Source of the DNA: an uncultured Chitinophagaceae bacterium
Lineage (GTDB): Bacteria > Bacteroidota > Bacteroidia > Chitinophagales > Chitinophagaceae
DNA length: 33,543 bases
Direction of reading: 5' to 3'
Assembly (NCBI GenBank): GCA_964615145.1
Contig: CAZTOP010000008.1
Span: 19,298 to 52,840 of the forward strand
The position numbers and the translations under genes are program-made. The notes under the pieces are model-generated. The model saw only the letters and a list, made by a program, of their open reading frames with translations. It was not told the origin of the DNA and did not search any database. This document shows positions 4,671-15,496 of this stretch, piece by piece (positions within the stretch are counted from its first letter, which is position 1; each line of letters opens with the position of its first letter).

Positions 4671-6896
4671 ATGATTAAAGTAAGATTCTATCTCGACAAA
4701 GCAGATAAAAATAGTTTTTCTCCTATACATCTTCGTGTAACCAAAAATGGTGTGCAAATCAAAGTCGCAACAGGTGAGAAAATAAAAAAGAAAGACTGGG
4801 ACAACACAAATCAATTGGTTAAAGACACAGAGTATAAGCATATATCAATCAATAAGTTTCTCAATTTTTTAAAATCAGAAACTGAGAAGTACATATCATC
4901 AACACCGCATACAAAACATACTGACAAAAAAATAAAAGACAAAATTCAAGAGTTAGTGAACAGTAGAAAAGCAAATACGGATGTTCAAATAGTATGTGAA
5001 GATGGAGCGAAATATGAAACAAAACAATCAATAACATTCGTTGACTTATTTGCAGGTGCAGGTGGATTTAGCGAAGGTTTTTTGCAAGCAGAAACAGATA
5101 TTCGATATTACGATTTTTTGCTAGGAAGCGATATCAATGAAAATTGTGAGCTAACTCACCTTGCACGTTATAATTATCAATTAGGACTTGATGCAGCATT
5201 TATAAGACAAGATATTACAGAACCTGATTTCTTGGATAATTTATTGAAAAAGATTAACTGCAAACAAGTTGATGTTGTCTGTGGAGGACCACCCTGCCAA
5301 AGTTTTAGTTTGGCAGGAAGAAGAAAGAAGTTTGATAAGAAAGATGATTTATTCGCACACTACCTAAAAGTAATTAGGCAGTTAAGACCTAAATATTTTG
5401 TAATGGAAAATGTGAAAGGAATTCTTACCAAAGAAGATGGCAAGATTAAAGAAATGATTTTGCAAGAAATTAGGTCAATAGTTGATTTAAAGGAATTTCA
5501 TCAGCTAATAACATTTGTTGCTCAACTAAAAAAGGTTGAGAAAAAACAACCTTTCATTTTAGATTGTTATACACTAAGATTACAATTTGAAACAGCAACA
5601 GAGAAACAACTCGAAAACTCCAGAGAGACTTATATACAGATTCTTGAAAACAAGTTTAGACTTTTAACGCCAAAAATCGTTGATTACAAAACAAGCAAAA
5701 CAGATAAGAATATAAGTACGATTCGACACGGATTTAATTTGCTTAAACGCAGCAAGGAATTGGCTTACATAAGAAAAAAAGTCATTCTTGAAAAGTCATT
5801 TTGTGATTTAGATAATGATTTTTTTACAGATAGCTTCGATGGATTTTTAACTTCAATAGAAAGTGAATCTATTATTGAAACTATTCATAATGCTTTTACA
5901 AACTTAAAGCCATCAGAAGACTATATTGCTGAAATAAATGACATAATTAAATCACTTGAAATTTATAATTACTCTTTTGATGAGTGTGTGCAAGGGCTAA
6001 AAACATTTGTTGAAAAGGCTAATAGATCAAATGAGTTTAATGAAATATTATCGCATATTAGATTATATAATATTGAACAACCTTTTGTTGCTCTTGCATC
6101 TAACTATGGTGTGCCACAAAATAGAGAAAGAGTTCTATTTATTGGTTGTCGAAAAGACCAAAAACTAATTACTGATGTACCACCTACAGTTACAGACAGA
6201 GAAAAGGTAACAGTTTTTGAAGCCTTATATGATTTGGATTTTGTTGGAAACGATGAAGAAAAGTATCATTACGAGAAAATAGATTTAAAAGCCAAATACA
6301 ATGGTTCAACAGAAAAGATGAAAGCCTTAATACAGAAAAGAAATATTGATGGAAAACCGAATAATAGTAAAGGTTTAACTTATGCAGACTGGAGCAAAAA
6401 AGGAAGATTAAATGAAAGATTTGCAAATGCAAAGAACCCCTTTTATGTAAGGAATTTTGAAGATTTAGAAAATAACCTTTCACACATTGTTGCTCCATTA
6501 CACAATCATAAAACAAGTAAACAAAACGACGATGTTGTAAAACGTTTAAATGTCATTTTAAATACTGGTGATTATGATTTAGCAAAAAAAGAATTGAAAG
6601 CAATCGGTTTAGATTCAGAAAAAAGAAGTTACAATGTATTAAAAGCAGATTCGCAAAGCCCAACAGTAATGACAATTCCAGATGATTATATTCACTTTTC
6701 AAGTCCAAGGGCTTTAACAGTTAGAGAAATGGCAAGATTGCAGTCATTTGATGATTCATTTGTATTTCAAGGTAAACGCTCAACTGGTGGCAATAAACGT
6801 AAATTTGAAGTACCGCAATTTACATTGGTTGGTAATGCTGTTCCTCCCTTAATGGCAAGGGCTGTGGCACTAGAAATATTAAAAAATATAGATTAG
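4671..6896 (+). CDS. DNA (cytosine-5)-methyltransferase. It has an N-terminal integrase-type Arm DNA-binding domain and a long insertion between motifs VI and VIII.
   Basis: Motif I FVDLFAGAGGFSEGF (aa 122-135), motif IV GGPPCQSFS (aa 205-213), motif VI FVMENVKG (aa 243-250), motif VIII QNRERVLFIG (aa 483-492), motif X LVGNAVPPLMA near the C-terminus. The N-terminal 55 aa (VRFYLDKADKNSFSPIHLRVTKNGVQIKVATGEKIKKKDWDNTNQLVK) match the Arm-DBD pattern of Bacteroidetes tyrosine integrases. Confidence 0.9.
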   Translation: MIKVRFYLDKADKNSFSPIHLRVTKNGVQIKVATGEKIKKKDWDNTNQLVKDTEYKHISINKFLNFLKSETEKYISSTPHTKHTDKKIKDKIQELVNSRKANTDVQIVCEDGAKYETKQSITFVDLFAGAGGFSEGFLQAETDIRYYDFLLGSDINENCELTHLARYNYQLGLDAAFIRQDITEPDFLDNLLKKINCKQVDVVCGGPPCQSFSLAGRRKKFDKKDDLFAHYLKVIRQLRPKYFVMENVKGILTKEDGKIKEMILQEIRSIVDLKEFHQLITFVAQLKKVEKKQPFILDCYTLRLQFETATEKQLENSRETYIQILENKFRLLTPKIVDYKTSKTDKNISTIRHGFNLLKRSKELAYIRKKVILEKSFCDLDNDFFTDSFDGFLTSIESESIIETIHNAFTNLKPSEDYIAEINDIIKSLEIYNYSFDECVQGLKTFVEKANRSNEFNEILSHIRLYNIEQPFVALASNYGVPQNRERVLFIGCRKDQKLITDVPPTVTDREKVTVFEALYDLDFVGNDEEKYHYEKIDLKAKYNGSTEKMKALIQKRNIDGKPNNSKGLTYADWSKKGRLNERFANAKNPFYVRNFEDLENNLSHIVAPLHNHKTSKQNDDVVKRLNVILNTGDYDLAKKELKAIGLDSEKRSYNVLKADSQSPTVMTIPDDYIHFSSPRALTVREMARLQSFDDSFVFQGKRSTGGNKRKFEVPQFTLVGNAVPPLMARAVALEILKNID

Positions 6897-6902
6897 TTTT
6901 TA

Positions 6903-8087
6903 ATGAGACAGCTATCCGAAATAGAAATCAGTCGTATAAAATTACTAACAGAAAACTCTGTAGAATTAACTTTAATTGAACCAACTGCAACAGGTTTGGA
7001 AAAGTCAATTATGGATGCCACAGGTTCTGTCCGTACTTATTTAAAATCAAAATCTATTCACGACTTTGAAAATCAAAAGCAAGGACAAGAATATAAAATA
7101 CAAATAAAATCGCATTTAATTTTTGAAGATGCACTAGTAAATTCTATCGCTTCATTATATCGCCCTAATACAAAAAAAGGAGACCCAAGAATTTGGTTTA
7201 AAGGATTAACAAGTTTTGCGAAAGCAAATGATATACTAGCAATTGTTGAATATCAAAAAGTGCTGTATGTTTTAAATATTACACAACTTGATTTGAAGAA
7301 ATTATTAGAAGCAAGAATCAACAACCCATTTAGTGAACTTATTAATGAAATCAATCAAAACACGAATGCTATTGCTGAAGAATTATTATTTAAACTAAAA
7401 GAGATTTCTGCAAGAGGCCTCGTTCCTGCTATGTTAAAAGCAGATACAGCAATAGGAAGAACACTCGAAACTTTACTAAACATTGATATTAATTCATCAA
7501 AAAAACCAGATTACAAGGGAATAGAATTAAAATCGTATCGTGATAAAAAGGGTAATAGAAAAAATCTATTCGCTCAAGTACCTGATTGGAATTTAAGTAA
7601 ATTTAGTAGTTCGGCTGAAATATTAAATGCATTTGGTTACAGTAGAGGTGAAGATTTTAAGTTGTATTGCACTGTATCAACTTTAGTGAGAAATTCACAA
7701 GGATTAAAACTAAAATTGAATGCTGAAATAAATCATTTAGTGGAAAATTCCGATAAATCAACAATTGGAGACTTTGTTGTTTGGGGCTTGGAAACTCTGC
7801 ATAAACGACTGCTTGAAAAACATAATGAAACATTTTGGATAGCTGCTGATTCAAAGATTGTTGATGGCAAAGAATATTTTCAGTATAAAAAAGTTGAACA
7901 CACCAAAAAGCCAATTGTTTCTCAGTTTGATATTCTATTGGAACAAGGAATTATTACATTAGATCACTTAATAAAAAGGAAACCGAGTGGAAGTGTTGTA
8001 GAGAAAGGACCACTTTTTAAAATAAAACCAAATGCTCTGGATTTATTATTTCCTCCTAGTCAATCATATTCATTAATTCAAAAATAA
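6903..8087 (+). CDS. Putative Type II restriction endonuclease (PD-(D/E)xK), cognate to the upstream methyltransferase
   Basis: It starts 6 bp after the methyltransferase stop on the same strand. It has a 'GRTLETLL...KKPDYKGIELKSYRD' segment (aa 185-213) that fits a G-x-x-L-E ... PD-x4-E-x-K nuclease core of the kind seen in MutH/Sau3AI-like and EcoRII/NgoMIV-like enzymes. This resemblance is from memory and unverified. The N-terminal roughly 130 aa could be a separate DNA-recognition domain. Confidence 0.5.
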   Translation: MRQLSEIEISRIKLLTENSVELTLIEPTATGLEKSIMDATGSVRTYLKSKSIHDFENQKQGQEYKIQIKSHLIFEDALVNSIASLYRPNTKKGDPRIWFKGLTSFAKANDILAIVEYQKVLYVLNITQLDLKKLLEARINNPFSELINEINQNTNAIAEELLFKLKEISARGLVPAMLKADTAIGRTLETLLNIDINSSKKPDYKGIELKSYRDKKGNRKNLFAQVPDWNLSKFSSSAEILNAFGYSRGEDFKLYCTVSTLVRNSQGLKLKLNAEINHLVENSDKSTIGDFVVWGLETLHKRLLEKHNETFWIAADSKIVDGKEYFQYKKVEHTKKPIVSQFDILLEQGIITLDHLIKRKPSGSVVEKGPLFKIKPNALDLLFPPSQSYSLIQK

Positions 8088-9032: not shown

Positions 9033-9102
9033 TATTATCATTGTAATTAAAAATACCTTTAATATTTTTGAGACGCAACTGTACTAATTTTTTTTATATA
9101 TC

Positions 9103-9248
9103 GTCCCTATGGGACTTTTGCTAGTTTTTGATGTGATGGCTAACCATATTTTATGCCTACGGCATAGTGCAACTTAAAACCAATAGCTCCACTAGGAGCA
9201 AAATATTGGTAGAAAGAAATAGCATTAGGTATTAGAGTTCCGTAGGAA
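9103..9248. repeat. Cluster of four GC-clamped mini-hairpins (5-bp stems, 3-4 nt loops) in a 318-bp intergenic gap
   Basis: gtcccTATgggac (9103-9115), atgccTACggcat (9154-9166), gctccACTAggagc (9186-9199), gttccGTAggaac (9236-9248). Confidence 0.45.
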
Positions 9249-9350
9249 CGAGATATTATTTAGCTTTTATCATATTTTAAATAGCGGTGTTTATAAACCC
9301 TAATAGGCAGGCATTGGTATAAAAAATTTTATAATAAATATAAATACACT

Positions 9351-9638
9351 ATGGCATTAATATTTACAGGTTCAACCGAATGTGCTATTTGTAAAAAGGT
9401 GTTGCAAGATGGAGAGGCTATAGCTACATTGCCTGCTATTGCTAATACACAGCATCCGTTGTATTCTTTTTTTGATGGTGGTTTCCATCAATCCTGCTTC
9501 GATAACTGGGAGCATAAAGCAACCATTCAACAAATTATTGAAGAGGAAAGAGCAGCCTATGAAAATTCAGATTACTACAAAGAAATGGTTGCTAAGTATG
9601 GTGAGCCAAAATATAAAAATACAACACCAGATAAATAG
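9351..9638 (+). CDS. Small hypothetical Cys/His-containing protein (possible metal-binding)
   Basis: 95-aa ORF with CAICKK...HQSCFDNWEH. No catalytic motif. Confidence 0.45.
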   Translation: MALIFTGSTECAICKKVLQDGEAIATLPAIANTQHPLYSFFDGGFHQSCFDNWEHKATIQQIIEEERAAYENSDYYKEMVAKYGEPKYKNTTPDK

Positions 9639-9900
9639 ACTTCTTCGGCAATTCAAAGAACATCTAATAGAGGCGTCTTTGCGAGGTTCTTGCCGAAGCA
9701 ATCTCCAGCATAAAATAAATTGCCCACTTTCAAGGAGACTGCTTCGTTCCTCGCAGTGACGTACACCATTATATTTTTTTAGAATTTTTGAAAAAGTCTC
9801 TAATGAATATGGGTTACATAGCTTGTTTTTTTACGAAGCACAAAACAATCTTCGCTATGTTTGAGATTGCTTCGGGCAAGAACCTTCGCAATGACTTTTT
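9639..9900. repeat. Roughly 250-bp element bounded by about 25-33-bp near-perfect inverted repeats, with internal GC-rich sub-hairpins. It could be a MITE-like element or a structured RNA.
   Basis: Left arm aggcgtctttgcgaggttcttgccgaagcaatctc (9671-9705). Right arm gagattgcttcgggcaagaaccttcgcaatgacttt (9863-9897), reverse-complementary with two 1-nt indels. Additional pairs: cttcggcaa(9643-9651)/ttgccgaag(9690-9698), actgc...gcagt (9738-9757), gcttcgt(9741-9747)/acgaagc(9833-9839). Confidence 0.55.
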
Positions 9901-10109
9901 GTTCCTAAAGTTTACCTATCCAATCATCAGTGTAAATCAGTAGCATCCGTGCTATCTGTGTTGCAACAAATATTCTGTTAATTACCTCACAAAATATCTT
10001 TTCCCCAATTTATCCTAATGGTTTGTTAGTCAAATTACAGACCCTTAGTTTTACAGATACTATTTTTAACCACAACATTTAATTAATCAATTAATAAACT
10101 TTTATTCAA

Positions 10110-10976
10110 ATGGAATTAGTTATCAAAAATCTTAGCAAAACATACAGCAATGGGGTTAAGGCTTTAAATAATATTAACTTAAATATTAGTAAAGGAATGT
10201 TTGGTTTGCTTGGTCCTAATGGTGCTGGTAAAAGTACTTTAATGAGAACTATTGCAGCTTTGCAAAATGCAGATAGTGGCAGTATTTTTTTAGGAGATAT
10301 TGATGTAATAAATCAAAAAAATGAACTAAGAAAAGTGTTGGGTTATTTGCCTCAGGATTTTGGTTTTTATCCAAAAGTTTCGGCACTTGACCTGTTAAAT
10401 CATTTTGCAGTGCTAAAAGGTATCAGTAATAAAACAGAACGTAAACAAATGGTAGATGCCTTATTACTGCAAACTAATTTGTATGAAGTAAGAAAAAGAA
10501 ACGTGAGTGATTACAGTGGTGGTATGCGTCAGCGTTTTGGTATTGCACAGGCTTTATTGGGTAATCCTAAACTGATTATTGTGGATGAACCCACAGCAGG
10601 ATTAGACCCACAAGAAAGAAACAGGTTTCATAATATTTTAAGCGAAATTGGTGAACAGGTAATTGTAATTCTATCTACCCATATTGTAGATGATGTTAAA
10701 ACATTGTGTAACCAAATGGTGGTAATGAACAGAGGTACTATTTTACTGGAAGGCACACCAAAACAAGCAGTGGAAGCCATACAGGGCAAAATATGGACAG
10801 CATCTATCAACAAAGAAGATTTAACCAGTTACAAAAAACAGTTCAACGTAATTTCTCAATACATTAACGAAGGGAAAATGACGGTTCACGTTTTTGCCAA
10901 CTCACAACCATCGGCCGAGTTTGTTGCTACTGAAGCAGACTTAGAAGATGTTTACTTTTCGCATATTGGAAAGTAA
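10110..10976 (+). CDS. ABC transporter ATP-binding protein
   Basis: Walker A GPNGAGKST, signature SGGMRQR, Walker B LIIVDEPTAGLD, H-loop STH. Confidence 0.93.
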   Translation: MELVIKNLSKTYSNGVKALNNINLNISKGMFGLLGPNGAGKSTLMRTIAALQNADSGSIFLGDIDVINQKNELRKVLGYLPQDFGFYPKVSALDLLNHFAVLKGISNKTERKQMVDALLLQTNLYEVRKRNVSDYSGGMRQRFGIAQALLGNPKLIIVDEPTAGLDPQERNRFHNILSEIGEQVIVILSTHIVDDVKTLCNQMVVMNRGTILLEGTPKQAVEAIQGKIWTASINKEDLTSYKKQFNVISQYINEGKMTVHVFANSQPSAEFVATEADLEDVYFSHIGK

Positions 10977-11075: not shown

Positions 11076-14000
11076 ATGTTTAAAGAGATATTTTTATTTG
11101 AATTAAAACAAGGCTTAAAAAAGCCCTCTACCTATATATACTTTAGTATTTTATTTTTATTATCAATGATGCTTGGTTTAGGTGGTACAGGTGCATTGTT
11201 TACTACCAGAAATGATAGTAATCTTATTATGAATTCGGCATCGGTAATATCTGGTATTTTATTAGTAAGCAGCAGTTCTATATTTAGTTTAATGACTAGT
11301 GTTTTATTGATATCTATCATGGCAAATGCTATACAAAAAGATTATGAGTATAATACACATCCACTTTTTTTTACCAAGCCTATTACTAAATCAAGTTATT
11401 TTTTTGGACGATTTTTAAGTGTGTTTCTTTTAGCAGTATTTGTATTTAGTGGCTTACTAATTGGATATTATTTAGGCATTATACACGCTGCGGGTACAAG
11501 CTATGTAGGAGCGTTTGAGTTTATTAATTTTATACAACCTTTCTTAATTTTTACCTTACCCAATGTATTTTTATTTGGCGTTATTTTCTTTTCGCTTACT
11601 ACTTTTTTGCGTAATACTATGATGGCTTATATAGTAGCCATTATTTTAATGGTATTGCAAATAGCTACTGGTACTATAAGCTCAGATATTGATAATAAAA
11701 TGCTGGTAGCTGTATTAGAACCAACTGGCAGCAAGGCTTTGGGCTTAATAACAGAATACTGGAGCCCTGCCGAAAGAAATGCACGGCTCATTCCACTATC
11801 GGGTGCTTTGTTATACAACAGACTACTTTGGTTGGGGATTGCATTGCTTACAACTGCCATTAGTTATTATGGCTTCAATTTTTCGCAATTTTTACAACCT
11901 TTTCAGTTATTTAAAAGAAAAAAAGCAGAGGAACAACCCTCGCAAGTGTTATTAAATAGCTTAAGTGAATTGCCAACAGTGCATCAAGATTTTAGTGTCA
12001 AAAATGCTTTACAACAAGCTTGGTATTTAGGTTGTTTTGAGTTTAAAAAATTAAATCGTACTGTATTTTTTATAGTAATGTGCTTGTTAAGTATTGGCAC
12101 TATGCTTTTAATTGTAAAGTATATGGATGCTATGTACGATTCGCCAACTTATATGGTTACATATAAAGTACTGGAAGAGGCAGTGGGCTCTTTGGATTTA
12201 TATGCTATGATTTTTATAATTTTTTACAGTGGCACCATTATTTGGCGAGATAGAGAAACTAAAATGGTAGAACTGGTTGGAGCCACTCCTATTAGTAACG
12301 GTTCATTGTTTTTATCAAAATGGATTGGTTTAGAGCTTGGATTTATTTTGCTTTCGGTTATAGGTGCTTTTTGTGGTATATTGATTCAATTATATAATGG
12401 TTTTTATCATATCGATTTTTCACAATATCTGGTTTTTATATTAAAAGGTATTGCATCGAGTAGTGTACTGATTACATTTTGTCTTGCAGTACAGGTGTAT
12501 TCTCCTAACAAGTTTTTAGGTTTCTTTTTTGTGCTGATTCCAATTGTAATTATGCCCATAATATTCAGTTTACTGGAATGGGATGTTTTTTTATTAGACT
12601 TTAATAGCAGTGGCGATTCAAGCGAGTATTCTGATATGAACGGTTATGGAACTACCTTTATTGAATGGCCTGTTTTTAGAACTTACTGGACAAGTATTGC
12701 CGTTTTTCTGGCTATGTTAGCCATTTTGGTTTATGCAAGAGGAAAGGAAAAATCGCTTGTTGGCAGATTTAGATTATCGAAATACTTTTTTGGAGCAAAG
12801 TATATGCTTTATATGCTTGCCAGCTTTATCGTTATTGCAGTTTTAGGGTATTACATTTATTATGAAAAAAGAATTGTAAAAACTCATATTTCAGCAAAAA
12901 CAGCAGAAAAAAACAGGGCTGAATTTGAAAAAAAATATAAAAAATACGAAACCTTATTACAACCAAGAATTGTAGCCACAGTAGTAAACCTTGATATGTT
13001 TACCAAAACAAAACAACTACATGTTGCTGGTGTTTACACTTTGGTTAATAAGCATGCTGTTGCCATTGATAGCTTGTATATTGATTATATAGGTGGTAAA
13101 AAAAGTTCTTACAATTTTTCTAAACTTAATCCAACTGTGGGTTATAAAGAGGTATTGAAAGATGAGGAAAATGGCATTAAAATTTTAAAACTTGAGCATC
13201 CTTTACAACCCAATGACTCTATTATTTTCGAATTTGATGTTTGGTATAAACCGCTTAGTTATTTCGATAAAGTAAATTCACCCATTCAAGCTAATGGCAC
13301 ATTCATTAACAATGAATTTTTCCCAAGTTTTGGATATAATGAAGGAGATGAGCTCAGCGAAAACAGGGCAAGAAAAGAATATAACCTGAAGCCAAAGCCA
13401 CGAATGGCAAAGGTTACAGACTCGGCAGCAAGAATGAACAACTACATTTCAAGCGATGCTGACTGGATAAGATTTGAAACAACGGTTAGTACAGATGAAG
13501 GACAAATTGCAATAGCACCTGGTTATTTGCAAAAAGAGTGGATAAAAGATGGCAGACATTATTACAGTTATAAAATGGATAGCCCAATTCTTAATTTCTA
13601 TTCTTTTTTAAGTGCAGCCTACCAAGTAAAAAAAGATAGCTGGAAGGGAATTAGTTTAGAAATTTATTATAACAAGGGTCACGAGTATAATATAGATAGA
13701 ATGATGAAAGGAATGAAAAAGGCTTTGGAATATTATACCACCAATTTTGGTCCTTATCAGCATCGACAAGTAAGAATTATTGAATTTCCAAGGTATCAAT
13801 CATTTGCTCAATCATTCCCTAATACCATTCCTTTCTCTGAATCTATAGGTTTTATCACAAAAGTTGATGATGAAGATCCATTAAGTATAGATGTTCCGTT
13901 TTATGTTACAGCACACGAGGTAGCTCATCAATGGTGGGCACATCAAGTAATTGGTGGCAATGTACAAGGTAGTGTTTTAATGAGTGAAACCATGAGTCAG

Positions 14001-14762
14001 TACAGTGCTTTGATGGTAATGGAAAAAGAGTATGGAAAGGATGCCATGAAGAAGTTCCTGAAATACGAAATGGACAAATATTTAAAAGGAAGAACTTTTG
14101 AAAGTAAAAATGAAATGCCACTGATGCTGGCAGAAAATCAACAATATATTCATTACAATAAAGGTAGTGTGGTAATGTATGCACTAAAAGATTATTTAGG
14201 GGAAGCAACCCTGAATAATGCTATTAAAGAATATTTAAACAAAACTAAATTTACTGGACCTGTTTATACTAATTCAATTGAGTTTGTTAATTACATAAAA
14301 AAAGCAACACCCGACAGTTTACAATATTTAGTAACAGATTTATTTGAGAAGATTACTTTATACGAAAACTATGTTAAAAAACTAGACTATAAGAAAATTA
14401 GTGATAAAGAATATAAGGTAAGTATAACAGTGGGTTGTGCTAAGTTCTATGCAGACAGCACTGGCAATTTAACCAAAGCTACAGTGAATGACTATGTTGA
14501 TATTGGTATATTCACAATGCAAAAAATTAAAAATAAAGACATAGAGAAACCATTACTATTTACCAGAGTAAAAATGAATGCACCAGAAAAAACATTTGAG
14601 TTTACTGTAACTGAAAAGCCTGTATCTGCTGGCATTGACCCATACTTAAAGTTAATTGACAGAACACCTAAAAACAATGTTTGCAAGTTTGGAGAAACGC
14701 CTTCAAAACCTAATCTTGATTTAAATGGGAAAGATCTTAGTATTATTATTGGAGGAGAATAA
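11076..14762 (+). CDS. ABC-2 family permease fused to an M1-family (aminopeptidase N-like) zinc metallopeptidase domain
   Basis: The N-terminal roughly 600 aa are polytopic membrane (more than 10 TM helices). The C-terminal domain has HEVAHQWWAH...E (HExxH-x19-E zinc site). The canonical GAMEN exopeptidase motif is not visible upstream of HExxH. Confidence 0.88.
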   Translation: MFKEIFLFELKQGLKKPSTYIYFSILFLLSMMLGLGGTGALFTTRNDSNLIMNSASVISGILLVSSSSIFSLMTSVLLISIMANAIQKDYEYNTHPLFFTKPITKSSYFFGRFLSVFLLAVFVFSGLLIGYYLGIIHAAGTSYVGAFEFINFIQPFLIFTLPNVFLFGVIFFSLTTFLRNTMMAYIVAIILMVLQIATGTISSDIDNKMLVAVLEPTGSKALGLITEYWSPAERNARLIPLSGALLYNRLLWLGIALLTTAISYYGFNFSQFLQPFQLFKRKKAEEQPSQVLLNSLSELPTVHQDFSVKNALQQAWYLGCFEFKKLNRTVFFIVMCLLSIGTMLLIVKYMDAMYDSPTYMVTYKVLEEAVGSLDLYAMIFIIFYSGTIIWRDRETKMVELVGATPISNGSLFLSKWIGLELGFILLSVIGAFCGILIQLYNGFYHIDFSQYLVFILKGIASSSVLITFCLAVQVYSPNKFLGFFFVLIPIVIMPIIFSLLEWDVFLLDFNSSGDSSEYSDMNGYGTTFIEWPVFRTYWTSIAVFLAMLAILVYARGKEKSLVGRFRLSKYFFGAKYMLYMLASFIVIAVLGYYIYYEKRIVKTHISAKTAEKNRAEFEKKYKKYETLLQPRIVATVVNLDMFTKTKQLHVAGVYTLVNKHAVAIDSLYIDYIGGKKSSYNFSKLNPTVGYKEVLKDEENGIKILKLEHPLQPNDSIIFEFDVWYKPLSYFDKVNSPIQANGTFINNEFFPSFGYNEGDELSENRARKEYNLKPKPRMAKVTDSAARMNNYISSDADWIRFETTVSTDEGQIAIAPGYLQKEWIKDGRHYYSYKMDSPILNFYSFLSAAYQVKKDSWKGISLEIYYNKGHEYNIDRMMKGMKKALEYYTTNFGPYQHRQVRIIEFPRYQSFAQSFPNTIPFSESIGFITKVDDEDPLSIDVPFYVTAHEVAHQWWAHQVIGGNVQGSVLMSETMSQYSALMVMEKEYGKDAMKKFLKYEMDKYLKGRTFESKNEMPLMLAENQQYIHYNKGSVVMYALKDYLGEATLNNAIKEYLNKTKFTGPVYTNSIEFVNYIKKATPDSLQYLVTDLFEKITLYENYVKKLDYKKISDKEYKVSITVGCAKFYADSTGNLTKATVNDYVDIGIFTMQKIKNKDIEKPLLFTRVKMNAPEKTFEFTVTEKPVSAGIDPYLKLIDRTPKNNVCKFGETPSKPNLDLNGKDLSIIIGGE

Positions 14763-14848: not shown

Positions 14849-15340
14849 TTACCCTTTCATATTTTCATATTGTAATGGCACACCAAAATTGCTGCTTCTG
14901 CACAAAGCAATTACGTCTTGCAAATCATCAATTTTTTTTGCAGTAACACGAATAATATTATCCATAATTGCAGCCTGAACTTTTAAGCCACTATCCTTAA
15001 TTGCTTTTACAATTTTTTTTGCATCATCTTGTTTAAGCCCATTGCGAACAGTAACTTCTTGCTTTACAATTTTTCCGCTTGGGTAAGGTTCCTTACTAAA
15101 ATCAAAAGCATTTGCATCAATACCTTGTTTAATTCCACGAGAAAGAATAACATCAGTTACTTGCTGAATTTTCATGTCGCTTTCTGCTTCAACTTTAATA
15201 ATAAAATTCTTTTTATCAAGTTCCATATCAAAATGAGAACCCCGAAAATCAAAGCGATTCTGAATTTCTTTTTTTACAACATTGATAGCATTATCTAATG
15301 TTTGTAAATCAACTTTGCTTGCAATATCAAATGATGGCAT
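14849..15340 (-). CDS. yajQ: YajQ-family (UPF0234) nucleotide/cyclic-di-GMP-binding protein
   Basis: MPSFDIASKVDLQTLDNAINVVKKEIQNRFDFRG... is the characteristic YajQ N-terminus. Length 163 aa. Confidence 0.88.
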   Translation of the reverse strand: MPSFDIASKVDLQTLDNAINVVKKEIQNRFDFRGSHFDMELDKKNFIIKVEAESDMKIQQVTDVILSRGIKQGIDANAFDFSKEPYPSGKIVKQEVTVRNGLKQDDAKKIVKAIKDSGLKVQAAIMDNIIRVTAKKIDDLQDVIALCRSSNFGVPLQYENMKG

Positions 15341-15496
15341 ATAACTATAAAATTATTAATTGTTAATATGTATGTTTATAAAAAATCAAAATTATGGAAT
15401 ATTGAACGCTCTTAATCTATAAAAAATTTCAAAAAAATAATTTTACAACTGTTTTTCAGCTGAAATAAATATCCTTGAATATGAATAAAAATCATC

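What the first reader, a model, noticed from the sequence alone, without database searches (positions are those of the whole stretch)
9639..9900. A roughly 250-bp element with about 30-bp terminal inverted repeats and nested GC-rich sub-hairpins (MITE-like or structured RNA)
The arms at 9671-9705 and 9863-9897 are reverse complements apart from two single-base indels. Additional complementary pairs are nested inside, and the element is markedly GC-richer than its surroundings. It sits just downstream of a small ORF and about 200 bp upstream of the ABC transporter genes. The overlapping 106-aa track ORF (9439..9759) is probably an artefact of this element.
Basis: seen in the sequence. Interest (0 to 1): 0.5.

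Follow-up and report, generated by a model that had tools for sequence, protein, structure and literature searches.

The report
Cluster of REP-type palindromic repeat units
The "250-bp element with terminal inverted repeats" is really a small cluster of copies of a short hairpin-forming DNA repeat found across many bacteria and phages, an ordinary kind of selfish or structural intergenic repeat and not a new RNA gene or a regulator of the neighbouring transporter.

Summary
The inverted arms exist as described, but they do not bound one element. The region 9636-9895 holds three intact and up to three decayed copies of a 26-33 nt palindromic unit, YGTC|ATTGC-GA-G[variable stem-loop]C-GAA-GCAAT|CTC.

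The units form two dimers with the GTC tags outside. Dimer 1 (9674-9761) is nested in a 165-bp end-to-end palindrome (9636-9800). That palindrome recurs at about 85% identity at unrelated loci of other Chitinophagaceae MAGs. Dimer 2 (9825-9895) has a decayed left partner.

The unit is very widespread: Bacteroidota, Alphaproteobacteria, Cyanobacteria, and phage structural operons. Its inner stem covaries. Near-identical phage contigs differ by presence or absence of units.

The cluster is absent from orthologous positions in close relatives and sits at a synteny breakpoint. Rfam has no match, and I found no RNA strand signal and no adjacent transposase.

Its architecture matches the CGTC-tagged REP superfamily of Di Nocera et al. 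2013, apart from a shorter basal stem and a conserved purine internal loop. ORF 9439-9759 is an artefact.

Verdict: a new member of a known kind, of low to moderate interest.

The parts
9636..9673 (.). Outer left arm of the 165-bp composite palindrome. Its TIR core is AGACTTCTTCG (9637-9647). It overlaps the TAG stop of the 95-aa ORF. It may be a decayed repeat unit.
   Evidence: It is conserved with L121, L184 and L126. It pairs with 9762-9800 in the DNA fold. It resembles a unit, and in I5.
9674..9705 (+). Unit A, intact: CGTC tag (9674-9677), then TTTGC-GA-GG TTCTTG CC-GAA-GCAAT-CTC. It is the left half of HH dimer 1.
   Evidence: 1 mismatch to GTCATTGCGAGG; 0 mismatches to CGAAGCAATCTC.
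9706..9734 (.). 29-nt spacer (the loop) of HH dimer 1.
   Evidence: It is conserved with L121 and forms the loop of the -36.7/-40.4 kcal/mol hairpin.
9735..9761 (-). Unit A', intact and of the short form. Read on the minus strand it is CGTC-ACTGC-GAGGAACGAA-GCAGT-CTC. Its basal stem carries the compensatory variant ACTGC/GCAGT. It is the right half of HH dimer 1.
   Evidence: The same variant occurs in L121, L140, L151 and L181.
9762..9800 (.). Outer right arm of the composite palindrome. Its TIR core is tGAAAAAGTCT (9789-9799).
   Evidence: About 70% complementary to 9636-9673 by my own count of the sequence. The end-to-end hairpin is shown. Homology with L121 ends at 9799.
9825..9853 (+). 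Unit B, decayed: gTTTTTTTACGAAG-CACAAAACAATCTTC. It is the left half of HH dimer 2.
   Evidence: It aligns column for column with intact units of L129, L150 and L126 (BLAST of 74 nt at 84%). It matches the half-site with 3 mismatches.
9854..9862 (.). Short spacer of HH dimer 2 (gctatgttt). It is similar to the spacers in L129 and L126.
9863..9895 (-). Unit B', intact. Read on the minus strand it is GTCATTGC-GA-AGG TTCTTG CCC-GAA-GCAAT-CTC. It is the right half of HH dimer 2 and is followed by TTTTT (9896-9900).
   Evidence: Alone it is a weak hairpin (-6 kcal/mol, z +0.6).
9351..9638 (+). The real 95-aa gene that ends at the element boundary (context).
   Evidence: An ortholog of 81% identity and the same length exists. 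Substitutions fall 14/6/29 by codon position. It was called in the source contig.
9439..9759 (+). Spurious 106-aa ORF that reads through unit A and unit A'.
   Evidence: Its frame has several stop codons in the relative L198. It was not called by the source's gene caller. Its C-terminus is the translation of the repeats.

Best explanation
The region 9636-9895 is a BIME-like cluster of REP-type palindromic repeat units. The basic unit is 26-42 nt and reads YGTC tag, 5-bp basal stem ATTGC/GCAAT, conserved purine internal loop GA/GAA, a variable upper stem-loop (loop TTCTTG in this Chitinophagaceae subfamily), and a 3-nt tail CTC. Units pair up with the tags outside ('HH' dimers, REPIN-like) and so form long hairpins. 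Here dimer 1 is nested inside a 165-bp palindrome that behaves as a composite, MITE-like element in Chitinophagaceae. A second, half-decayed dimer lies 25 bp downstream. These are non-coding, non-autonomous DNA repeats that are gained, lost and amplified at the DNA level. The likely route is single-stranded hairpin intermediates handled in trans by an enzyme that has not been identified, plus recombination between copies. They accumulate in variable intergenic DNA. In this window the cluster marks the junction between an accessory block (restriction-modification genes and small ORFs) and the conserved ABC-transporter operon. Any effect on expression is a by-product and is inferred, not shown; one example would be the very stable dimer-1 hairpin 36 nt after the stop codon acting as a 3' mRNA stabiliser or transcription barrier. 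Shown: the repeat nature, the architecture, dispersal, covariation of the stem, presence/absence polymorphism, and absence from orthologous sites. Inferred: the transposition mechanism and any RNA-level effect.
For: (1) Three intact units lie in the cluster and none elsewhere in the 33.5-kb window. Three further unit-like decayed segments are present.

(2) The composite 9636-9799 recurs at L121:2719-2881 (85% over 164 nt). Parts of it recur in L184, L126, L125, L129 and L150. In every case the rest of the locus is unrelated to the window. L184 has a perfect 13-bp outer TIR.

(3) The exact subfamily pattern occurs in 14 loci of Chitinophagaceae/Bacteroidota MAGs, with up to 4 loci per MAG, and a looser pattern (variable gaps around the GGTTCTTGCC core) in 55 metagenome loci.

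It also occurs in plasmids of Novosphingobium, Methylosinus, Methylocystis and Aulosira, and inside phage portal/capsid operons.

(5) Dimer orientation is HH 91, TT 37, HT 31.

(6) The upper stem covaries: 108 of 160 cells are paired against 81 +/- 4 in column shuffles, with 0 of 2000 shuffles reaching the observed value. The basal stem shows the compensatory variant ACTGC/GCAGT.

(7) Phage contigs with 98-100% identical flanks differ by one unit present or absent and by 1 versus 3 units. A 42-nt in-frame intragenic insertion is also seen.

(8) Six relatives whose ABC ATPase is 87-93% identical have no unit upstream. In the relative GCA_965185295.1, homology downstream of the 95-aa ORF ends at 9618-9636, and the genes that follow are different.

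(9) Dimer 1 folds at -36.7/-40.4 kcal/mol, z -5.6/-6.8. The whole of 9636-9800 folds end to end as DNA.

(10) The architecture matches the published CGTC-tagged REPs. The shared features are the tag, a stem starting with AT, a 3-nt tail, HH heterodimers, dimers nested in palindromes, intragenic copies, and no dedicated transposase (PMC3733652).
Against: Copy number in the source genome itself could not be measured. Only this one cluster lies in the 33.5 kb, and there are no units in 51 kb of close relatives, so the family is sparse in this lineage. No target-site duplication could be established for the 165-bp element: the flanks are T...A in L121 and L184 but T...C in the window. No mobilising enzyme was found. 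Among 320 loci the only Y1-like ORF lies 3.2 kb from a unit, is not flanked by units, and scores below the Pfam threshold. Reading the outer arms as decayed units rests on weak similarity; 3-mismatch matches are at chance level window-wide. The near-identity of the unit across phyla is not what vertically co-evolving REP/RAYT pairs show and remains unexplained.
Confidence: 0.8

Rival explanations
1. A single, roughly 250-bp MITE bounded by the 30-bp inverted repeats 9671-9705 and 9863-9897.
For: The arms are nearly perfectly complementary, and the whole region folds as one hairpin.
Against: No other locus carries this 230-bp arrangement. Homologous copies elsewhere cover 9636-9799 or 9828-9901 separately, never as one piece. 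A third intact unit (9735-9760) pairs with the left arm at 29-nt spacing, which matches the commonest HH dimer geometry in the family (median gap 22 nt). The right arm has its own decayed partner at a 9-nt spacing. The left boundary of homology is 9636, not 9671.
Confidence: 0.05
2. A functional structured RNA. Candidates are a cis-regulatory leader or riboswitch for the ABC transporter, a small RNA gene, or a 3'-UTR stabiliser or terminator selected for that role.
For: The cluster is intergenic between co-directional genes. The hairpin is very stable. RNA folding of single units favours the GTCAT strand by about 2 kcal/mol, with more G:U pairs on that strand (207 versus 112). Single units show a mild sense bias, 52 to 30. 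T5 follows unit B'. Published REPs can stabilise mRNA, as cited in PMC3733652.
Against: Rfam gives no match at gathering thresholds or at E<=10. The cluster is absent upstream of six ABC operons that are 87-93% identical, while the promoter-proximal roughly 120 bp is conserved. It is also absent downstream of the orthologous 95-aa gene. In the covarying upper stem, G:T cells (9) do not exceed A:C cells (15), so neither strand is favoured. The energy difference probably reflects the purine internal loop. Dimer 1 has no U-tract, and unit B' alone folds no better than shuffles (z +0.6). The promoter/terminator scan flagged nothing here. Units also occur inside coding regions and in both orientations.
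Confidence: 0.1
3. A recombination scar or attachment site (an integron attC-like or integrase att site) left by insertion of the upstream restriction-modification island.
For: The cluster lies exactly at a synteny breakpoint. The upstream block carries a methylase fused to an integrase-type Arm DNA-binding domain. The attC sites of integrons are also imperfect hairpins with conserved ends and a variable centre; this comparison rests on my own knowledge.
Against: By direct reading, the unit lacks the attC core sites RYYYAAC/GTTRRRY. The same units occur by the hundred in unrelated contexts, including phage structural operons and plasmid catabolic operons. No integrase gene lies next to the cluster. 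Dispersed repeats are expected to collect at, or to cause, such breakpoints.
Confidence: 0.05

Closest known systems
CGTC-tagged REP superfamily (Di Nocera, De Gregorio & Rocco 2013, BMC Genomics 14:522; includes Neisseria dRS3 and Rickettsia RPE-4/-6)
   Same: An unpaired CGTC/TGTC tag sits at one end. The stem begins with complementary A-T, T-A. The tail is 3 nt and unpaired (CCA in the variant, CTC here). HH dimers with tags outside predominate. Heterodimers have loops of different length. Some dimers are nested in longer palindromes. Copies are mostly intergenic, with occasional in-frame intragenic ones. The family occurs in several phyla, including Bacteroidetes and Alphaproteobacteria. 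No dedicated transposase is known.
   Different: The published families have 8-9 bp fully paired stems and 4-5 nt loops. This unit has only a 5-bp basal stem, then a conserved GA/GAA purine internal loop, then an upper stem-loop of variable length. I could not see the paper's Figure 2 consensus sequences, so I cannot say whether this unit is one of CGTC-1 to -4. It does occur in N. aromaticivorans, a listed CGTC-2 host. Its abundance in phage genomes was not reported there.
REPIN/RAYT systems and E. coli BIMEs (Bertels & Rainey 2011; Ton-Hoang et al. 2012)
   Same: Two inverted REP units separated by a short spacer form one long hairpin. Units also cluster in alternating orientation. Copy number varies between close relatives.
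   Different: The tag is CGTC, not GTAG. No flanking RAYT gene was found. The unit sequence is nearly identical across phyla, whereas REPINs co-diverge with their lineage-specific RAYT.
Bacterial MITEs with full-length palindromic structure (for example Correia/NEMIS, Nezha, Rickettsia RPEs)
   Same: The 165-bp element has 11-13 bp TIRs, folds end to end, sits in AT-rich intergenic DNA, and recurs at unrelated loci at about 85% identity.
   Different: No parental IS with the same TIRs was found and no clear target-site duplication. Its core is a dimer of a much more widespread, independently occurring short unit.

Membership tests
CGTC-tagged REP superfamily | Unpaired terminal tetranucleotide CGTC (or TGTC/CCTC) | tested here: met
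   In the window, unit A has CGTC at 9674-9677, unit A' has CGTC (reverse complement of 9758-9761), and unit B' has AGTC. In the family, the base before GTC is T 54% and C 28%. In the CCA-tail variant it is C in 153 of 177 units.
CGTC-tagged REP superfamily | Stem starting with complementary A-T residues at positions 1 and 2 | tested here: met
   The consensus is ATTGC/GCAAT. Unit A' has ACTGC/GCAGT, and unit A has a T.T mismatch at position 1.
CGTC-tagged REP superfamily | Stem of 8-9 bp and loop of 4-5 nt | tested here: not met
   Only 5 bp are complementary. They are followed by a conserved GA/GAA internal loop and an upper stem-loop of 0-30 nt.
CGTC-tagged REP superfamily | Short unpaired 3-nt tail (consensus CCA) | tested here: met
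   The tail is CTC in the window and in the set. A CCA form is equally abundant.
CGTC-tagged REP superfamily | Predominantly HH dimers (tags outside), often heterodimers | tested here: met
   HH 91, TT 37, HT 31. Both window dimers are HH, and dimer 1 is a heterodimer (centres GTTCTTGC versus AA).
CGTC-tagged REP superfamily | Many copies per genome, mainly extragenic | tested here: inconclusive
   Units are depleted in crude ORFs: 41% lie inside them against 84% coding. Up to 4 loci with exact-pattern matches per MAG, and arrays of up to 10 units. The source genome could not be scanned, and its relatives show none in 51 kb.
CGTC-tagged REP superfamily | Identity with one of the published consensus families CGTC-1 to -4 | not testable with these tools
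   Figure 2 of PMC3733652 is not held, and the supplements contain no sequences.
REPIN/RAYT | Cognate single-copy Y1 (RAYT) transposase gene flanked by the REPs | tested here: not met
   A motif scan of all ORFs in 320 loci found one weak candidate (L122:768-1493; Y1_Tnp E=0.0034, below cutoff). It is 3.2 kb from a unit and is not flanked by units. The source genome is not testable.
REPIN/RAYT | Two inverted REPs forming one hairpin | tested here: met
   Dimer 1 folds at -36.7/-40.4 kcal/mol, z -5.6/-6.8.
IS-derived MITE | Terminal inverted repeats plus a target-site duplication | tested here: inconclusive
   TIRs are present: AGACTTCTTC/GAAAAAGTCT here, and a perfect 13 bp in L184. The flanks are T...A, T...A and T...C, so no unambiguous duplication is visible.
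IS-derived MITE | Autonomous IS sharing the same termini | tested here: not met
   No transposase lies between or beside the units in the sampled loci.
Curated structured RNA (Rfam) | Match to a covariance model | tested here: not met
   The window gives 0 matches at gathering thresholds. The region 9300-10200 at E<=10 gives only two chance snoRNA hits outside the element. Thirteen unit-rich loci give 0 matches.
cis-regulatory leader of the ABC operon | Conservation at the orthologous position | tested here: not met
   Six relatives with 87-93% identical ATPase lack it. Similarity upstream of the ATPase start codon is confined to a stretch of the window at about 9985-10050.
Intrinsic terminator | G+C-rich stem immediately followed by a U-tract | tested here: not met
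   No T-run follows dimer 1 or the outer palindrome. Unit B' plus T5 has a weak stem (-6 kcal/mol, z +0.6). The scan flagged nothing at 9636-9900.

The most novel reading that the evidence does not exclude
The ATTGC-GA...GAA-GCAAT unit may be a distinct, essentially pan-bacterial and phage-borne mobile hairpin. Its near-invariant tag, basal stem and purine internal loop span hosts of 30-72% GC in at least three phyla. That invariance would reflect recognition by one horizontally spreading, still unidentified enzyme or by a universal host factor. Phages would then be a vehicle for its spread. The 165-bp Chitinophagaceae element would be a second-order MITE built from nested units.
Probability: 0.2. 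Interest if true: 0.55.

Novelty: new member of a known kind. Interest (0 to 1): 0.3.

Why it matters
For annotating this window, the result removes a false ORF. It rules out a riboswitch or leader for the ABC transporter. It also explains a synteny breakpoint as repeat-rich variable DNA. More broadly, these units are translated into recurrent spurious peptides in many metagenomic protein sets, so a model of the unit would help mask them. The cross-phylum sequence constancy, the conserved GA/GAA internal loop, the abundance inside phage late operons, and the lack of any known mobilising enzyme together form a modest open question about how CGTC-type REPs spread.

Tried and rejected
- **Rfam.** I searched the window, the region at E<=10, and 13 unit-rich loci. 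Nothing matched.
- **tRNA or tmRNA origin.** None found.
- **Literature searches by sequence.** Searches with the DNA or RNA sequence of the unit and with the peptides it encodes returned only unrelated primer hits. The RepRanger paper has nothing specific.
- **Exact 25-mer scan of JGI metagenomes.** It gave 0 hits. A gapped pattern then gave 55 loci.
- **BLAST of the whole cluster against PLSDB plasmids.** No match.
- **Gene association.** The clusters of neighbouring proteins turned out to be phage structural genes (portal, capsid, adaptor, ClpP). They reflect relatedness of the IMG/VR contigs and are not a mobilising enzyme. The gene between two units in L134 is an alcohol dehydrogenase.
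- **RAYT search.** One sub-threshold candidate, not associated with units.
- **RNA-strand test.** Whole-unit MFE favoured one strand, but the cleaner test on covarying pairs showed no G:U excess. I treat the first result as an energy-model effect of the purine loop.
- **Target-site duplication for the 165-bp element.** TA and AAT were each considered. Neither is consistent across the three copies.
- **Downstream remnant.** I checked whether the sequence after the element is a remnant of the 126-aa gene that follows the ortholog in L198. The similarity is too weak to claim.
- **attC identity.** Rejected on the core-site sequence.

Full report
**1. Checking the observation**

The arms 9671-9705 and 9863-9897 are reverse complements apart from two single-base indels and one mismatch (pairs I2 and I10; alignment). 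A search with the 33-nt arm finds nothing by chance in 100 shuffles. The 12-mer GAGAYTGCTTCG occurs three times in the window against 0.05 expected. The region 9630-9910 folds much better than shuffled sequence on either strand (z -6.3 and -6.7).

The GC enrichment is modest. The region is 38% GC against 32% for the window, and only the repeat units reach 52-59%. The 95-aa ORF stops at 9636-9638, and the ABC ATPase gene starts at 10110.

**2. Anatomy: a cluster of short units, not one element**

The arm sequence is present three times, not twice:
- 9675-9705, read as GTC...CTC on the + strand
- 9735-9760, in the opposite orientation
- 9863-9895, also in the opposite orientation

The first two lie 29 nt apart and form a very stable hairpin (-36.7/-40.4 kcal/mol, z -5.6/-6.8). 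The third has its own partner 9 nt to its left, 9825-9853. That partner has decayed, but it aligns column for column with intact units in other loci (BLAST of 74 nt at 84% to L129).

The first dimer is embedded in a longer palindrome, 9636-9800. Its outer arms (TIR core AGACTTCTTC / GAAAAAGTCT) pair over about 37 nt, and the whole 165 nt folds end to end as DNA. The outer arms themselves weakly resemble decayed units (I5). If that is right, the cluster is an alternating array of six units, like an E. coli BIME. This last point is only suggestive.

**3. The same pieces occur elsewhere at unrelated loci**

One scan of species-representative genomes with a subfamily-specific pattern found 14 loci. 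All are in Chitinophagaceae or Bacteroidota MAGs, with up to four loci in one MAG. A metagenome scan found 55 more.

L121 carries the whole composite element (window 9636-9799, 85% over 164 nt). L184 carries it with a perfect 13-bp outer TIR and a shorter right arm. L126 and L125 carry the left arm plus a dimer. L129 and L150 match the second dimer. In every case nothing else in the 8-kb locus matches the window, so these are dispersed copies and not orthologous regions. The left boundary is consistently 9634-9638, not 9671.

**4. The unit belongs to a very widespread family**

A variant with tail CCA in place of CTC did the same, in contigs of 30-72% GC. The GTCA end was not part of the first search pattern, yet it is almost invariant.

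The unit reads YGTC | ATTGC | GA | G-[variable]-C | GAA | GCAAT | CTC or CCA. The smallest form is CGTCATTGCGAGCGAAGCGAAGCAATCCA. HH dimers of it lie in plasmids of Novosphingobium aromaticivorans, between a dioxygenase gene and a VOC-family gene. They also occur in plasmids of Methylosinus, Methylocystis and the cyanobacterium Aulosira.

Many of the IMG/VR contigs are true phages, with units between portal, scaffold, capsid and adaptor genes.

**5. Structure**

The variable centre is usually a hairpin. Centres of 9 nt or more fold at a mean of -3.7 kcal/mol against -1.1 for shuffles.

In the Chitinophagaceae subfamily the loop TTCTTG is conserved while the stem changes by compensatory substitutions (TCGGG/CCCGA, TTGAGG/CCTCAA, GCTGGG/CCCAGC and others). 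At the four variable pairs, 108 of 160 cells are paired against 81 +/- 4 when partners are shuffled among sequences, and 0 of 2000 shuffles reach the observed value. The basal stem also has a compensatory variant, ACTGC/GCAGT. It is seen in window unit A' and in L121, L140, L151 and L181. So a hairpin is under selection.

Which nucleic acid forms it is not settled:
- In the covarying stem, G:T cells (9) do not outnumber A:C cells (15).
- Single units between co-directional genes are only mildly biased, 52 sense to 30 antisense, and the phage loci are not independent.
- Whole-unit RNA folding favours the GTC... strand by 2 kcal/mol. I attribute this to how the energy model treats the purine internal loop.

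**6. Arrangement**

Neighbouring units are mostly HH, with tags outside: 91 HH, 37 TT and 31 HT, at a median spacing of 22 nt. Arrays of up to ten units occur.

**7. Evidence of gain and loss**

Among related phage contigs, flanks that are 98-100% identical bracket different states:
- a unit present in L014 and absent in L073
- three units in L014 where L073 has one, with the junctions inside the repeats
- a 42-nt in-frame insertion inside a gene, in L072 and L098 but not L073

No clean target-site duplication is visible in these pairs or around the 165-bp element.

**8. The window locus compared with relatives**

The source contig is a metagenome assembly. Its gene caller called the 95-aa ORF but not the 106-aa one.

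Six loci whose ABC ATPase is 87-93% identical to the window's have no unit within 3 kb. Their upstream genes all differ, and visible similarity upstream of the ATPase start is confined to a stretch at about window 9985-10050. This rules out a conserved leader for the transporter.

The 95-aa gene has one ortholog, 81% identical and of the same length, in assembly GCA_965185295.1. That assembly also holds a 93%-identical ABC operon on another contig. There the gene is followed 4 nt later by a different gene. DNA homology with the window stops at 9618-9636 and resumes only at the YajQ gene (window 14856-15367). The repeat cluster therefore sits exactly at a rearrangement junction in variable DNA: restriction-modification genes here, an AbiC-like gene in the relative.

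**9. The ORF question**

Substitutions between the two 95-aa genes fall 14/6/29 on codon positions 1/2/3. In the frame of ORF 9439-9759 they fall 5/20/12, and that frame has several stop codons in the relative. The tail of the ORF's translation (...EASLRGSCRSNLQ...RRLLRSSQ) is simply the repeat read through.

**10. Comparison with what is known**

Di Nocera et al. 2013 (PMC3733652) describe a superfamily of REPs tagged by an unpaired CGTC, often TGTC. They report these properties:
- stems that begin A-T, T-A
- 3-nt tails, mostly CCA
- predominantly HH dimers, often heterodimers
- some dimers nested in longer palindromes
- intragenic copies
- presence in five phyla, including Bacteroidetes
- no dedicated transposase

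All of these hold here. The stated stem of 8-9 bp and loop of 4-5 nt do not hold. This unit has a 5-bp basal stem, a conserved GA/GAA internal loop and a variable upper stem-loop. I could not see the paper's consensus figure, so I leave assignment to one of its four families open. The unit does occur in N. aromaticivorans, a listed host of CGTC-2.

The REPIN/RAYT model fits the dimer-hairpin form. The tag does not fit, however. No RAYT was found near any unit. Constancy of the sequence across phyla is also not what co-diverging REPIN/RAYT pairs show. Quentin et al. 2018 (PMC6006769) note Y1 transposase subclasses 2.4 and 2.6 in Bacteroidetes with atypical or "double foot" REPs. That is a lead and was not tested.

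**11. Mechanism and verdict**

The most likely reading, at about 0.8, is a cluster of REP-type palindromic units. They are non-autonomous DNA repeats that spread and are lost through hairpin-forming intermediates and inter-copy recombination, and here they decorate a variable junction. The stable dimer-1 hairpin 36 nt after the stop codon may incidentally protect or end the upstream transcript. That is inference by analogy with E. coli REPs. The lack of a U-tract argues against a classical terminator.

The finding is genuine but ordinary in kind. The unresolved and mildly interesting part is what mobilises this cross-phylum, phage-carried family.

Noticed in passing
window 4671-8087: A 741-aa protein fuses an integrase-type Arm DNA-binding domain (PF17293) to a C5 cytosine methylase. 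It is followed directly by an MvaI/BcnI-family restriction endonuclease. The N-terminal Arm domain on a methylase is unusual.
   Followed up: no
window 9050-9638 versus L198:3661-4249; window 14856-15367 versus L198:7661-8171: The 95-aa gene and the YajQ gene are syntenic with a relative. The DNA between them differs: the ABC operon here, and a 126-aa lipoprotein-like ORF, a TPR protein and an S1/P1 nuclease there. The small gene sits beside defence-type genes in both genomes, restriction-modification here and putAbiC in the relative.
   Followed up: partly
window 11076-14762: A 1228-aa protein combines ABC-2 type membrane domains with a C-terminal M1 peptidase domain. It is conserved at about 80% DNA identity in relatives.
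   Followed up: no
L001:4300-4400 versus L094/L009: In one phage group a unit is inserted between a Shine-Dalgarno-like AAGGAGG and the start codon of the capsid-region gene. Folding of the hairpin would bring the two back together. This may be a split ribosome-binding site.
   Followed up: no
L072:6299-6323 and L098:2565-2589 versus L073:~6517: A 42-nt (14-codon) in-frame unit insertion lies inside a phage coiled-coil or scaffold-like gene. It is reminiscent of Rickettsia palindromic elements found inside genes.
   Followed up: partly
L151:2570-3342, L165:4437-7733, L167, L168, L171: Dense arrays of 5-10 units in alternating orientation lie within a few hundred bases. They are much larger clusters than the one in the window.
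   Followed up: no
window 9103-9115 (+) and 9186-9199 (-): Two short G+C-rich hairpins with T-runs, terminator-like, lie between the 181-aa ORF and the 95-aa ORF.
   Followed up: no
Metagenome-contig collection: The exact 25-mer GCGAGGTTCTTGCCGAAGCAATCTC gave 0 hits in 241 million JGI records, although it is shared by the window and at least four GTDB MAG loci (L121, L125, L126, L184). The low-GC sublineage that carries the window's form seems poorly represented there.
   Followed up: no
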